The notes beneath the pieces are model-generated. The model worked only from the letters and a program-made list of their open reading frames with translations. It searched no databases and was not told the origin of the DNA. Of a DNA stretch of 64,000 bases, positions 45,208 through 50,335 are shown piece by piece. This stretch comes from Escherichia phage vB_ESM-pEJ01: sequence record OP114734.1; one strand, written 5' to 3'. The first letter of the stretch is position 1. Each line of letters starts with the position of its first letter. The translations under genes and the position numbers were made by a program.

Positions 45208-45984
45208 TTACACGCGAGCACCGTAGATCGTGCCTACTTTATCCCAGCGTGGAGCATTACCAGTAACAGCCTTACCAGCAGCACCGCCGTTATATTCTGT
45301 ACCGTTACCTTGAGTATTACATCTTCCTCCAGCAGCACCGACATTACCACCCGAACCGCCTGTATATGCACTAAGAGACCCCTCACCAACAGATCCTTTA
45401 CCAGGAGCGGAAATAGTACCAGCAGTTGCACCGGAACTCATATGAGAGGAAGACCCACCAGCACCGAATGGGCGACCACCGCCGCCGCCAAATACTAGTC
45501 GACCCCTGTTACCGCCGCCACCGCCGCCACCGCCGCCAGCGATAGCACCGTTATTTGTAATTCGTAGACGTGTACCGATAGCGTTATTGATTGCGTTTCC
45601 ACCAGCAGCGCCAGCAGCGTTACTACCACCATTACCCCCACGTCCGTAGACAGTCACATCGGAGTTGATGATCAGTGTTACATACTCGTTTGTTAACGAG
45701 CTAGGGAAGTCAAGACAAGGAACGCCAGTAGATTGGGAAACAATATTACCTGTGATAGTAATTACTACAGGAGTAGATCCTTGTGCTTTCATCCAGTTAA
45801 TAAGAGTGTCTTTATTGTAAGAGTTACTAGCACCAATGCTATAATGAATCTCTTTAGAGCGTCCGACCATTGCCGACATATACGCCGGACGACCTAAGCG
45901 TACAGCTTGCATTGCGGCGCTCATCCACCGTTGACCAGTCTCGGACACAGCAGATGATCCTACCCATCCAGAAGATATTGCCAT
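45208..45984 (-). CDS. glycine-rich protein (258 aa) with poly-Gly tracts
   Basis: C-terminal half about 45 percent Gly incl. GGGGGGGGG and GGGGG runs (ccg/cca triplet repeat 45511-45537); ordered N-terminal domain. Confidence 0.55.
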   Translation of the reverse strand: MAISSGWVGSSAVSETGQRWMSAAMQAVRLGRPAYMSAMVGRSKEIHYSIGASNSYNKDTLINWMKAQGSTPVVITITGNIVSQSTGVPCLDFPSSLTNEYVTLIINSDVTVYGRGGNGGSNAAGAAGGNAINNAIGTRLRITNNGAIAGGGGGGGGGNRGRLVFGGGGGRPFGAGGSSSHMSSGATAGTISAPGKGSVGEGSLSAYTGGSGGNVGAAGGRCNTQGNGTEYNGGAAGKAVTGNAPRWDKVGTIYGARV

Positions 45985-47571: not shown

Positions 47572-47588
47572 AACACCTAAAAACGAAA

Positions 47589-47608
47589 AAGCCACCCTTT
47601 CGGATGGC
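47589..47608 (-). terminator. rho-independent terminator
   Basis: rc hairpin agccatccgaaagggtggct followed by UUUUCGUUUU. Confidence 0.5.
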
Positions 47609-47842
47609 TTTTGATTATATTTTATTCACGTCCATTTGTATAGTAGTGTTTGAATCGACCTTTGCTAAACTAGTTAAACATAGTAACCAATTCACCATCC
47701 CTTTCCAATGATAACCCTTCCTCGTCTTAGACGGGTCTTCCGATTCGGCAGTAATTGAACACGCGAAAGTATGAGGAAGCCAAATAGTTGTGTTAATGCT
47801 AGTATTCTTTTACTTCTGGTATGCATCCCACGGTGACTAACA

Positions 47843-48241
47843 TTAAGACAGTCGAGTGAGTTTATAAATTGTTTTAAAACATAGAGCTTTGATATCGTCT
47901 AAAACGCTCTGTAACGAGCTATCAACATCATTATAAATCTCACTAGCCATTTGCGTTAACTCTTGCAAATAGGCAATTTCGCTAATCTCCTTGCGGACGA
48001 CCAACGTTGGCTGATAACGACCAGTGATCCCAATATTGGTTTCAGTGAAATCATCAACCAATTCTTGCATTTCAAGATAGAACTCTTCTAGAGCCTTATG
48101 TTTTGCATAAGATCCAGGACCAGTTACCCCAAAATGCGCAGAATGCATATAAGTAACACTCATCAGACATTCACCGATAAAGCGGTCAACTTTATTATCT
48201 TTTCCCTCTTCGGACGTCTTTCGAAAATCACTGAATTTCAT
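47843..48241 (-). CDS. possible ferritin/Dps-like four-helix-bundle protein (about 132 aa)
   Basis: MSVTYMHSAHFGVTGPGSYAKHKALEEFYLEMQELVDDFTE loosely resembles Dps HWNVxG...HE motif; start at ATG 48241 (track ORF begins 48340). Confidence 0.35.
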   Translation of the reverse strand: MKFSDFRKTSEEGKDNKVDRFIGECLMSVTYMHSAHFGVTGPGSYAKHKALEEFYLEMQELVDDFTETNIGITGRYQPTLVVRKEISEIAYLQELTQMASEIYNDVDSSLQSVLDDIKALCFKTIYKLTRLS

Positions 48242-48530
48242 GTTCTCGATTCTCCATATTATGCAACATAACAAACTGTTGTGCGGCATATTCCCCCATA
48301 ATAAAACACTGCTTAGAATCCATACATTTACTACGAGCATACATCTTCATAATATGGGCATGAAATTTCTGGCTGGTTTCAATGGAAGGAGATATTTTGT
48401 TTACATATACTATCATTGCACCGTCGAAATAATCAGTAAAGTCACCAGTTGGATCATATTGATCAGCACTGACACTTCCGACCGCAGTCAAGCATATTGC
48501 CGCTGTTAGAGTTTTACGAATAAATGACAT
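48228..48530 (-). CDS. secreted/periplasmic protein with signal peptide
   Basis: N-terminal MSFIRKTLTAAICLTAVGSVSA signal-peptide-like; TATAAATA late-promoter-like motif (rc about 48568-48577) 40 nt upstream. Confidence 0.5.
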   Translation of the reverse strand: MSFIRKTLTAAICLTAVGSVSADQYDPTGDFTDYFDGAMIVYVNKISPSIETSQKFHAHIMKMYARSKCMDSKQCFIMGEYAAQQFVMLHNMENREHEIQ

Positions 48531-48598
48531 AAGTCATTCCCCCAGATTAAAAATATTCAGTTATATTTATAATCTGGGGCTTTATTTATGATTAACTC

Positions 48599-49195
48599 TT
48601 ATTTGGTAGTACCGTCAATAAAATGTTTACGGCACACAGAGACATATTTATCCTCTGCACCAACTTCTATTTGAGCACCATCGCGAATAACATTACCCTC
48701 TTTATCTACACGAAGGACCATTGTTGCTTTCTTGCCACAATGACAAATACCCTTCATTTCGACCAGTTTATCAGCAAATGCCATTAATGCCGCAGATCCT
48801 TCAAATAGATTGCCCTGAAAGTCGGTGCGAAGGCCATAGCACAGTACAGGGATATTTGCATCATCGACAAGCGCACACAAGCCTAAAACATGCTCTTTAG
48901 TCATAAATTGGGCTTCATCTACAAATACAGCATCAGGACGCCATCGATCCGGTCTACGCTTACCTAACGATTCACGATAAACCAAATCGAAAAGATCATC
49001 CGATTCAGTGAAGGTGATCGCTGGAGCACTTAGGCCAATTCGGGAAACAACTTCACTTTCTGAATCTCGATTATCAATCGCTGGCTTAAGAATTAATACT
49101 CGCATATCACGTTCGGTATAGTTATAAGCACTTTGTAACAGAGAAGTTGATTTGCCAGCGTTCATAGATGCATAGTAGAAATATAGTTGCGCCAT
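48599..49195 (-). CDS. tk: thymidine kinase
   Basis: Walker A YASMNAGKS, VDEAQF, C-terminal zinc ribbon CHCGKKAT...VCRKH. Confidence 0.9.
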   Translation of the reverse strand: MAQLYFYYASMNAGKSTSLLQSAYNYTERDMRVLILKPAIDNRDSESEVVSRIGLSAPAITFTESDDLFDLVYRESLGKRRPDRWRPDAVFVDEAQFMTKEHVLGLCALVDDANIPVLCYGLRTDFQGNLFEGSAALMAFADKLVEMKGICHCGKKATMVLRVDKEGNVIRDGAQIEVGAEDKYVSVCRKHFIDGTTK

Positions 49196-49723: not shown

Positions 49724-49926
49724 TTACATTTAGGGCAATGCGGTTCTTTAATATAATACCCGTCTGTCTTTGGAACACTAACAGGAGCGGTTTTTATATT
49801 GTATTCGGTGAAACAACGAAAACAAGTTACGTTTTCTACAGACTGACGTTTCACCCAATAACCGGAATAGAGGTCATTTTTATTTGTCATATTCCACCAC
49901 CACAATGTTAATGTCTGGAGTAGCAA
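49696..49926 (-). CDS. zinc-ribbon small protein (76 aa)
   Basis: CFRCF...CPKCKC. Confidence 0.45.
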   Translation of the reverse strand: MLLQTLTLWWWNMTNKNDLYSGYWVKRQSVENVTCFRCFTEYNIKTAPVSVPKTDGYYIKEPHCPKCKCRLYWSHL

Positions 49927-50335
49927 TATTAATGATTTCTTCTACACATTCCAACTCAAGGCCACCGATACCGCAACCGATTTTAGGGATATAGAAAGGC
50001 TGTATAGCACCTTCAAAAACATCATTGAGAGTCTCAAATCCTTTCAGGATAGCACCATATTCAGCATTTGGACCCGGTCGGAATTGGGTATAGAGATTCA
50101 CCCCGCACCAGTTATAACCATTAACTTGATGCGTCCAGACACTAAACCCACCCAACTTTTCTACCTTACCGCGAGAAGTTTGCTTGTCAATCTCTAACGC
50201 TTGCGGGAACTCTTTCGCGATATCCGCAGCAATACCAGCGCCCATAGTATGAAAACAATTACAACCATGAATTAAATGACCGTTTCCTTGTTTAAACAGG
50301 GCGATGAGATCGCCCTTTACAGTATCAATAATCAT
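49880..50335 (-). CDS. Macro domain protein (ADP-ribose binding / ADP-ribosyl hydrolase-like)
   Basis: IHGCNCFHTMGAGIAADIAKEF and IPKIGCGIGGLELECV match the two conserved glycine-rich macrodomain motifs; 151 aa. Confidence 0.6.
   Translation of the reverse strand: MIIDTVKGDLIALFKQGNGHLIHGCNCFHTMGAGIAADIAKEFPQALEIDKQTSRGKVEKLGGFSVWTHQVNGYNWCGVNLYTQFRPGPNAEYGAILKGFETLNDVFEGAIQPFYIPKIGCGIGGLELECVEEIINIATPDINIVVVEYDK

What the first reader, a model, noticed from the sequence alone, without database searches (positions are those of the whole stretch)
47843..48241. Possible Dps/ferritin-like protein
About 132-aa ORF has a segment (HSAHFGVTGPGSYAKHKALEEFYLEMQELVDDF) resembling the ferroxidase-centre helix pair of Dps proteins. 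A phage-encoded Dps-like protein could protect DNA or sequester iron during infection. Weak evidence.
Basis: inference. Interest (0 to 1): 0.35.

Follow-up and report, generated by a model that had tools for sequence, protein, structure and literature searches.

The report
Phage rI.-1 is a mini-Dps
The ORF is a real gene, the counterpart of phage T4's uncharacterised rI.-1. It is predicted to be a shortened Dps-type mini-ferritin that keeps all four iron-oxidising residues and is co-expressed with the lysis-inhibition gene rI, but it belongs to an already catalogued family and its activity is untested.

Summary
Window 47843..48241 (-) encodes a 132-aa protein, and the quoted segment is its residues 33-65. 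The window is a Krischvirus (RB49/JSE-like T4-type coliphage). The gene is the ortholog of T4 rI.-1, belongs to Pfam DUF5856 and PHROG 858, and occurs in 1,423 phage records.

The Dps reading holds at three levels.
- Sequence: the only PDB hits below E 1e-3 are seven Dps-family chains (best 3e-5).
- Ligands: H36, H48, D63 and E67 align with the Dps ferroxidase ligands at the canonical spacing (x11, x14, x3). They are four of the five most conserved columns in 150 diverse family representatives.

It is not a canonical Dps. It falls below the curated Pfam (PF00210) and NCBIfam Dps cut-offs, is shorter, has no predicted BC helix and has no lysine-rich tail.

It is translationally coupled to the antiholin gene rI, downstream of a T4-type late promoter.

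The most likely function is iron oxidation and sequestration in the infected cell. This is inferred, not shown. Database names already hint at Dps, but no paper in the searched library makes the link.

The parts
47843..48241 (-). CDS of 132 aa plus stop: ortholog of T4 rI.-1 (Pfam DUF5856, PHROG 858), predicted Dps-type mini-ferritin
48041..48145 (-). Codons 33-67: end of helix A, the A-B loop and helix B, carrying H33, H36, H48, Y55, D63 and E67. This is the putative inter-subunit ferroxidase ligand set H-x11-H-x14-D-x3-E.
   Evidence: Gapless HMMER alignments to Dlp-2, Dlp-1 and S. aureus Dps. Conservation: H36 150/150, H48 149/150, D63 149/150, E67 150/150, Y55 146/150.
48252..48255 (-). 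Shine-Dalgarno GGAG, 10 nt upstream of the ATG and inside the 3' end of rI
   Evidence: Read directly from the sequence.
48228..48530 (-). rI antiholin (lysis-inhibition regulator), 100 aa with an N-terminal signal-anchor-like segment. Its stop codon lies 14 nt inside the Dps-like gene, which indicates translational coupling.
   Evidence: PHROG 1246 'lysis inhibition' E 3.7e-26. Annotated rI in near-identical phages. Overlap read. T4 has a 4-nt overlap at the same junction.
48564..48571 (-). T4-type late promoter box TATAAATA, 34 nt upstream of the rI start, in the 68-bp tk-rI spacer
   Evidence: One of only 2 matches in the 64-kb window. This is the position reported for the T4 rI-operon late promoter (PMC2962797). 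A consensus match only; function not shown.
47692..47826 (-). 44-aa very basic ORF immediately downstream; probably the last gene of the transcription unit; function unknown
   Evidence: ORF list. Annotated as hypothetical in phage GoldenSnicker. No PHROG hit.
47587..47612 (-). Intrinsic-terminator-like hairpin (11-bp stem, T-rich tail) that would end the rI / rI.-1 transcript
   Evidence: Terminator scan. A consensus match only.

Best explanation
The gene encodes a cytoplasmic, shortened Dps-type mini-ferritin. It is the Krischvirus ortholog of T4 RI.-1.

Proposed mechanism, by analogy with Dps:
- Subunits pair about a two-fold axis, so that H36 (possibly with H33) and H48 of one chain face D63 and E67 of the other. 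This forms inter-subunit ferroxidase sites.
- These sites bind Fe(II) and oxidise it with H2O2 or O2 to Fe(III), removing the reactants of Fenton chemistry.
- Y55, at the position of the radical-trapping Tyr of Listeria Dps, would quench stray radicals.

The gene is transcribed with the antiholin rI, from an upstream early promoter by read-through (as reported for T4) and from a late promoter box, and it is translationally coupled to rI. Host transcription is shut off after infection, so the host cannot induce its own Dps. The phage therefore supplies iron and peroxide buffering itself while it makes hundreds of genome copies, especially during the hours-long lysis-inhibited state.

Shown here: gene reality, orthology to rI.-1, ferritin-like fold, Dps-specific sequence similarity, the conserved ligand set, and the operon layout. 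Inferred: oligomeric state, metal binding, catalysis and the physiological role.

The confidence of 0.55 refers to the iron-oxidising function. Remote homology to Dps and the ferritin-like fold I put at about 0.9.
For: - Sequence: all seven PDB hits below E 1e-3 are Dps-family proteins. A profile of 108 diverse family members again finds Dps first (2d5k, 6.7e-5).
- Ligands: H36, H48, D63 and E67 align gaplessly with the His/His/Asp/Glu of Dlp-2, Dlp-1 and S. aureus Dps. They have the same spacing as E. coli Dps H51/H63/D78/E82, read from the E. coli sequence. They are 150, 149, 149 and 150 of 150 conserved among representatives that are no more than 50% identical to each other. T4 RI.-1 keeps them.
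- Y55 is conserved in 146 of 150.
- Operon: TATAAATA lies upstream of rI, there is a 14-nt rI/rI.-1 overlap, a GGAG precedes the start, and a terminator-like hairpin lies downstream.
- Genetics: overexpressing T4 rI.-1 prolongs lysis inhibition (PMC2962797). That fits a protein that keeps the infected cell functional for longer.
- The homolog also occurs in Ackermannviridae next to a DNA primase gene with no rI nearby. This argues for a general function not tied to the lysis machinery.
Against: - It fails the curated Dps family thresholds. Pfam PF00210 gives no hit at E <= 10 for this protein and only 2 of 108 family members hit it, at E >= 0.023. NCBIfam Dps scores 15.6 bits against a 114-bit cut-off.
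- hhalign against a narrow enterobacterial Dps alignment gave only E 0.0015 and probability 17%. It put H33, not H36, on Dps H51.
- The protein is 15-35 residues shorter than typical Dps. Helices C and D are short and no BC helix is predicted in loop 74-87, so dimer or dodecamer assembly is unproven.
- In 146 of 150 relatives the His-His spacing is x8, not x11.
- The Trp next to the first ligand in Dps is Phe here and mostly Leu in the family.
- The protein is acidic (pI 5.0) and lacks a conserved basic tail, so DNA binding is unsupported.
- The only experiments on the T4 ortholog point to an interplay with RIII, not to iron.
Confidence: 0.55

Rival explanations
1. Lysis-inhibition accessory factor with no iron chemistry. 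The ferritin-like bundle is only a scaffold. It binds or stabilises RIII, or the cytoplasmic domain of holin T, and so modulates the timing of lysis-inhibition collapse.
For: The gene is translationally coupled to rI and shares its late promoter. The junction is conserved in T4. In T4, plasmid expression of rI.-1 prolongs lysis inhibition, acts synergistically with rIII, relieves RIII toxicity, and has no effect in an rIII mutant (PMC2962797).
Against: A pure scaffold would not need H36, H48, D63 and E67 to be 99-100% conserved across about 1,900 cluster representatives. Homologs exist in Ackermannviridae with no adjacent rI and as domains of unrelated large proteins. The genetic effects were small, came from overexpression, and are equally explained by better survival of the infected cell.
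Confidence: 0.2
2. Iron reservoir or chaperone rather than protectant. The mini-ferritin captures iron and hands it to phage iron proteins, such as the di-iron NrdB subunit of ribonucleotide reductase, or the iron-binding tail-fibre tips known from T4 gp37 (established knowledge, not tested here).
For: It rests on the same ferroxidase ligand evidence as the main explanation. Late-promoter expression coincides with virion assembly. The Ackermannviridae homolog lies in a replication gene block.
Against: No co-occurrence or linkage with nrd or tail-fibre genes was tested or seen. Ackermannviridae use tailspikes. Dps proteins are not known as iron donors to specific clients.
Confidence: 0.15
3. 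DNA-binding protein or transcriptional regulator, as the PHROG-derived product name 'starvation-inducible transcriptional regulator' implies.
For: PHROG 858 carries that name. A second weak hit is to PHROG 3636 'DNA binding protein' (E 7e-7). E. coli Dps binds DNA.
Against: The name appears to be a corruption of 'starvation-inducible DNA-binding protein', which is JGI's name for Dps. No DNA-binding domain was detected. The protein is acidic (pI 5.0). Its N-terminal 20 residues carry 6 K/R against 5 D/E and are the least conserved part of the family.
Confidence: 0.05
4. Chance resemblance: an unrelated helical bundle that happens to carry His, Asp and Glu at similar spacing.
For: Helical bundles give many weak structural matches. 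Foldseek E-values against the PDB were only about 0.02, and hhalign probability was 17%.
Confidence: 0.03

Closest known systems
Bacterial Dps mini-ferritins (E. coli Dps, Listeria innocua Dps, Bacillus anthracis Dlp-1/Dlp-2, H. pylori HP-NAP; Pfam PF00210)
   Different: Identity to Dps chains in the structural alignments is only 10-24%, and it scores below the PF00210 and NCBIfam Dps thresholds. It has 132 aa against 145-170 for Dps. Helices C and D are shorter and no BC helix is predicted. Phe/Leu replaces the Trp next to the first ligand. Most relatives have an A-B loop 3 residues shorter. There is no Lys-rich tail. Dodecamer formation and iron chemistry are untested.
Bacteriophage T4 RI.-1 (NP_049716, also called MobD.6), third gene of the T4 rI operon
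   Same: Ortholog: 33% identity over 98% of the length, E 1e-11. Same N-terminus MKFSDF and the same four ligands. Same position directly after rI with overlapping stop and start codons. Same Pfam and PHROG families.
   Different: The window protein has a 3-residue insertion (TGP) in the A-B loop that gives the canonical Dps spacing. T4 has Phe at the Y55 position. This phage has no rI.1 gene between tk and rI.
Previously reported phage-encoded Dps-like proteins (Lactobacillus plantarum myophages, PMC6669764; gut 'Gratiaviridae' and other gut phages, PMC8008677)
   Same: Phage-borne ferritin-like proteins proposed to limit iron and peroxide damage during infection.
   Different: Those papers describe their proteins as homologs of cellular Dps. 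The 2021 paper states that DPS-like enzymes had been seen only in seven Lactobacillus phages, so the DUF5856 / rI.-1 family of T4-type phages was not counted. I did not compare their sequences with this protein.

Membership tests
Pfam DUF5856 (PF19174) | Score above the curated gathering threshold | tested here: met
   75.5 bits against a 34.6-bit cut-off, E 6.9e-21. All 108 aligned relatives also match.
T4 rI.-1 orthologous group (PHROG 858) | Full-length match to the family profile, and position directly downstream of rI (itself downstream of tk) on the same strand | tested here: met
   PHROG 858 E 1.3e-43 over residues 1-131. JSE 'rI.-1' 96% identity and T4 rI.-1 33%. Gene order tk, rI, rI.-1 in the window and in T4.
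Dps mini-ferritins | Ferritin-like four-helix bundle | tested here: met
Dps mini-ferritins | Inter-subunit ferroxidase ligands: two His (end of helix A, start of helix B) plus Asp and Glu one turn apart on helix B, pattern H-x11-H-x14-D-x3-E | tested here: met
   H36, H48, D63 and E67 have that spacing and align gaplessly with three Dps structures. E. coli Dps H51/H63/D78/E82 have the same spacing. Conservation is 149-150 of 150. Whether they meet across a dimer interface could not be tested.
Dps mini-ferritins | Recognition by the curated family models (Pfam PF00210 Ferritin-like domain; NCBIfam NF006975 Dps) | tested here: not met
   No PF00210 hit at E <= 10. Only 2 of 108 relatives hit it, with best E 0.023. 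NF006975 scores 15.6 bits against a 114-bit cut-off.
Dps mini-ferritins | Short BC helix in the long loop between helices B and C, lying on the two-fold axis | tested here: not met
   DSSP on the model shows no helix in residues 74-87, and that loop is only 14 residues long. This is model-level evidence only.
Dps mini-ferritins | Assembly into a hollow dodecamer with 23 symmetry | not testable with these tools
Dps mini-ferritins | Fe(II) oxidation (preferentially by H2O2) and storage of a ferric mineral core | not testable with these tools
   A biochemical property. No experimental data on any DUF5856 member were found.
Dps mini-ferritins (E. coli type) | Lys-rich flexible N-terminal tail that mediates DNA binding (not universal among Dps) | tested here: inconclusive
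   The first 20 residues have 6 K/R and 5 D/E; E. coli Dps has 4 K/R and 1 D/E. Overall pI is 5.0. The N-terminus is the least conserved region of the family.
Classical ferritins / bacterioferritins | Intrasubunit di-iron site built from Glu and ExxH motifs on helices A/B and C/D | tested here: not met
   The only strongly conserved positions in helices C and D are D115, T124 and Y126. There is no conserved ExxH.

The most novel reading that the evidence does not exclude
T4-type phages build iron and peroxide management into the lysis-inhibition programme. A dedicated mini-ferritin is translationally coupled to the antiholin RI, so cells committed to a prolonged latent period are protected from Fenton damage. 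The redox or iron state of the infected cell, sensed or buffered by RI.-1, would then feed into the timing of lysis-inhibition collapse. More broadly, DUF5856 would be a large phage-specific Dps lineage (about 1,900 clusters at 50% identity), sometimes fused into giant proteins. Separately, other phage proteins with a Dps-like fold are annotated as prohead proteases.
Probability: 0.12. Interest if true: 0.7.

Novelty: new member of a known kind. Interest (0 to 1): 0.4.

Why it matters
rI.-1 has sat next to one of the most famous genes in phage genetics for decades with no assigned biochemical function. Showing it to be a Dps-type mini-ferritin with an intact ferroxidase ligand set turns 'accessory LIN gene of unknown function' into a specific, cheap-to-test hypothesis: iron oxidation, peroxide protection, and ligand-site mutants.

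It also means that phage-encoded Dps-like proteins are far more common than the open literature states. They occur in 1,423 of 50,697 deposited phage genomes, including T4 itself.

The widely propagated product name 'starvation-inducible transcriptional regulator' is probably a mis-transfer. The protein shows no sign of being a transcription factor.

The practical significance is moderate. The family is already catalogued, and the physiological role is still inferred.

Tried and rejected
- Diverse Dps profile: I tried to build one for a proper profile-profile test. The homolog search with E. coli Dps listed only the best 120 hits, all at least 80% identical. The resulting alignment (A3) was too narrow, and hhalign gave only E 0.0015 and probability 17%. 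I treat that as uninformative, not negative.
- Cellular genomes: the search for related loci on bacterial genomes with the broad alignment failed because no stretch was conserved enough. The presence of the family in cellular genomes or prophages was therefore not assessed.
- Fusion partners: Pfam and PHROG scans of the large proteins that embed the domain found no other recognisable domain, apart from one sub-threshold match to DUF3008 (PF11450; 21.6 bits against a 24-bit cut-off) in P0074. The fusion partners gave no functional clue.
- Literature: searches for DUF5856, rI.-1 with ferritin, rI.-1 with Dps, and the PHROG product name found nothing linking this family to Dps. Two candidate papers mentioning 'DPS' referred to unrelated acronyms.
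- Longer ORF: I considered the 165-aa ORF starting at 48340 and rejected it. It would overlap rI out of frame for 100 nt, has no conservation, and contradicts the conserved MKFSDF start.
- Classical ferritin or bacterioferritin di-iron site: rejected, because there is no conserved ExxH on helices C and D.

Full report
**What is there**

The minus strand of window 47843..48241 carries a 132-codon ORF.

The mechanical ORF list extends the frame to an upstream ATG at 48340. The start at 48241 is the real one for three reasons:
- A GGAG lies at 48255-48252, ten bases upstream of the ATG.
- Near-identical deposited phages annotate exactly this 399-nt gene.
- The N-terminus MKFSDF is identical in the T4 ortholog.

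**Where the window comes from**

The 2.5 kb around the gene is 99.3% identical to Escherichia phage W115, and at least 90% identical to all 58 phage records that match, which are classified in or related to Krischvirus (the RB49/JSE group of T4-type phages).

The gene order on the minus strand is as follows:
- thymidine kinase (48599..49195)
- rI antiholin (48228..48530; PHROG 'lysis inhibition' E 3.7e-26)
- the ORF in question
- a 44-aa basic ORF (47692..47826)
- a terminator-like hairpin (47612..47587)

**Identity of the gene**

tblastn finds the protein in 1,423 of 50,697 phage records. Phage JSE labels it rI.-1 (96% identity), and so does T4 (33% identity over 98% of the length, E 1e-11).

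In T4 the gene also directly follows rI, with overlapping stop and start codons. The window has a 14-nt overlap at the same junction.

It matches Pfam DUF5856 (75.5 bits against a 34.6-bit cut-off). It also matches PHROG 858 over its full length (E 1.3e-43).

An exhaustive HMMER scan of 1.84 billion cluster representatives finds 1,909 members at E <= 1e-3 and 278 at E <= 1e-10. The gene is therefore real, under selection, and a member of a large, already catalogued family with no assigned function.

**Is it Dps-like? Sequence**

phmmer against all PDB chain sequences gives seven hits below E 1e-3, and every one is a Dps-family protein: Dlp-2 (3.2e-5), Dlp-1, S. aureus Dps, B. brevis Dps, MrgA and two HP-NAP sequences. 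A profile of 108 diverse family members again ranks Dps first (2d5k, 6.7e-5).

**Is it Dps-like? Fold**

AlphaFold2, run on a 20-sequence alignment without templates, gives pLDDT 86.7 and pTM 0.80. The model has four long helices at 17-37, 44-73, 88-103 and 108-131.

**Ligands**

In the gapless HMMER alignments to Dlp-2, Dlp-1 and S. aureus Dps, H36, H48, D63 and E67 fall on the His, His, Asp and Glu of those proteins. Their spacing (x11, x14, x3) equals that of H51, H63, D78 and E82 in the E. coli Dps sequence I fetched. Those four are the ferroxidase ligands, according to established structural work on Dps.

I aligned the domains of 150 representatives, each from a different 50%-identity cluster. 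Conservation at key positions:

| Position | Conserved in |
|---|---|
| H36 | 150/150 |
| H48 | 149/150 |
| D63 | 149/150 |
| E67 | 150/150 |
| Y126 | 150/150 |
| Y55 | 146/150 |
| D115 | 139/150 |
| H33 | 127/150 |

H36, H48, D63 and E67, together with Y126, are the five most conserved residue columns. The chance that four pre-named positions all fall in the top five of 132 columns is about 4e-7 (my calculation).

Y55 lies seven residues after the second His. As I recall, that is the position of the radical-trapping Tyr50 of Listeria Dps. T4 RI.-1 keeps all four ligands.

One subtlety concerns the His-His spacing. In 146 of 150 relatives only 8 residues separate the two His; the Krischvirus lineage is one of the few with 11. 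In the short-loop majority it is H33 that lies x11 before H48. One low-confidence hhalign alignment pairs H33 with Dps H51, whereas all the HMMER alignments pair H36 with it. H36 is the invariant one, so I take it as the ligand. H33 may also contribute.

**In what respects it is not a Dps**

- It does not reach the curated thresholds. There is no PF00210 hit even at E <= 10, and only 2 of 108 relatives hit it weakly. NCBIfam Dps scores 15.6 bits against a 114-bit cut-off.
- It is shorter than typical Dps (132 aa against 145-170 aa).
- Helices C and D are short, and the 14-residue B-C loop has no predicted BC helix.
- The Trp that follows the first ligand in Dps is Phe here and mostly Leu in the family.
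- The protein is acidic (pI 5.0). Its N-terminal 20 residues (6 K/R, 5 D/E) are the least conserved part of the family. I therefore see no support for E. coli-type DNA binding.
- Oligomeric state and iron chemistry could not be tested.

I therefore call it a divergent, phage-specific relative that probably works like a Dps. I do not call it a member of the curated Dps family.

**Expression context**

A T4-type late-promoter box, TATAAATA, lies at 48571-48564 on the minus strand, 34 nt upstream of the rI start. It is one of only two matches in the 64-kb window. That is the position reported for the late promoter of the T4 rI operon, which is also read from an upstream early promoter (PMC2962797).

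This phage has no rI.1 gene in the 68-bp tk-rI spacer, so the unit here consists of rI, the Dps-like gene and the 44-aa ORF.

The homolog in the Ackermannviridae phage SKML-39 lies next to a DNA primase gene with no rI nearby. A more distant T4-like metagenomic contig shows different neighbours. The protein therefore does not depend on rI.

**What is known experimentally**

The only functional study I found is Golec et al. 2010 (PMC2962797). In that study:
- Plasmid expression of T4 rI.-1 slightly prolonged lysis inhibition.
- It acted synergistically with rIII and relieved RIII toxicity.
- It had no effect in an rIII mutant.

The authors stated that the function is unknown and did not mention Dps. 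Abedon's 2019 review repeats that its role is 'as yet undefined'.

No paper in the searchable library contains rI.-1 together with ferritin or Dps, or mentions DUF5856. A 2021 gut-phage survey states that DPS-like enzymes had been seen only in seven Lactobacillus phages.

Automated annotation has, however, already picked up the similarity. PHROG 858 is named 'starvation-inducible transcriptional regulator'. JGI calls one relative 'DNA-binding ferritin-like protein' and calls true Dps 'starvation-inducible DNA-binding protein'. The PHROG name is most likely a garbled transfer of that label. Nothing in the protein suggests a transcription factor.

**Most likely mechanism**

My best explanation, at confidence about 0.55 for the function, is a Dps-type mini-ferritin. 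I put remote homology to Dps and the ferritin-like fold at about 0.9. The reasoning runs as follows:
- The four conserved residues sit on the outer face of helices A and B. In Dps that face forms the two-fold interface, so the ferroxidase sites would be shared between subunits.
- Those sites would oxidise Fe(II) with H2O2 or O2 and so suppress Fenton chemistry.
- T4-type phages shut off host transcription (established knowledge), so the host cannot induce dps. A phage copy made early and late, and coupled to rI, would protect replicating phage DNA. This would matter most during the prolonged lysis-inhibited state.
- That would also account for the modest extension of lysis inhibition on overexpression.

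Rivals:
- A metal-independent partner of RIII or holin T (0.2).
- An iron reservoir for phage iron proteins (0.15).
- A DNA-binding regulator (0.05).
- Chance resemblance (0.03).

**Verdict**

The family is already catalogued and loosely labelled by homology, and this copy is 99% identical to deposited phages, so the distance from known systems is small.

The value lies in giving the classic T4 gene rI.-1 a concrete, testable biochemical hypothesis, and in showing that Dps-like proteins are common in T4-type and Vi1-type phages. Interest: 0.4.

Noticed in passing
window 45208..45984 (-): A 258-aa glycine-rich protein matches the gp38-type tail-fibre adhesin / host-specificity family (PHROG 2056, E 1e-98). 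It sits inside a block of small early-type genes about 1.9 kb downstream of the rI operon. I did not check where the main tail-fibre module of this phage lies.
   Followed up: no
window 47692..47826 (-) and 47587..47612 (-): A 44-aa, very arginine/lysine-rich ORF with no PHROG match lies between the Dps-like gene and a strong terminator-like hairpin. It is annotated as hypothetical in related phages and would be the last cistron of the rI transcript.
   Followed up: partly
window 48531..48598: This phage has no rI.1 gene between tk and rI. The 68-bp spacer holds only the late-promoter box TATAAATA (48564..48571, minus strand). T4 has the 70-aa, toxic rI.1 at this place. Of the two 'accessory' LIN genes, only rI.-1 is present at this locus in both T4 and this Krischvirus.
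   Followed up: partly
proteins P0069 (1934 aa, domain at 925-1049), P0115 (1439 aa), P0137, P0123, P0091, P0164; P0046/P0058/P0118 and similar: The DUF5856 domain is embedded in giant metagenomic proteins. It also forms the N-terminus of many 215-316-aa proteins with unrelated C-terminal regions. No other Pfam or PHROG domain is recognisable in the giant proteins that were scanned.
   Followed up: partly
BFVD entries A0A6J7WIS1, A0A6J7XDU5, A0A6J5N5R9: Some uncultured phage proteins that match the model's Dps-like fold are annotated as prohead proteases or are long 'Ferritin/DPS domain' proteins. If the ferritin-like domain is fused to the protease, it could be a capsid-targeted cargo reminiscent of encapsulins. 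This concerns relatives, not the window gene.
   Followed up: no
window 48116..48124 (-), codons 40-42: The Krischvirus lineage carries a 3-residue insertion (TGP) in the A-B loop that is absent from 146 of 150 family representatives. It gives exactly the Dps His-His spacing and the same 'VTGP' string as Bacillus Dlp-2. Whether this is ancestral or convergent is unknown.
   Followed up: partly
window 49880..50335 (-): A 151-aa protein matches PHROG 335 'phosphatase' (E 1e-60). It lies upstream of tk and next to the vs (valyl-tRNA synthetase modifier) homolog.
   Followed up: no
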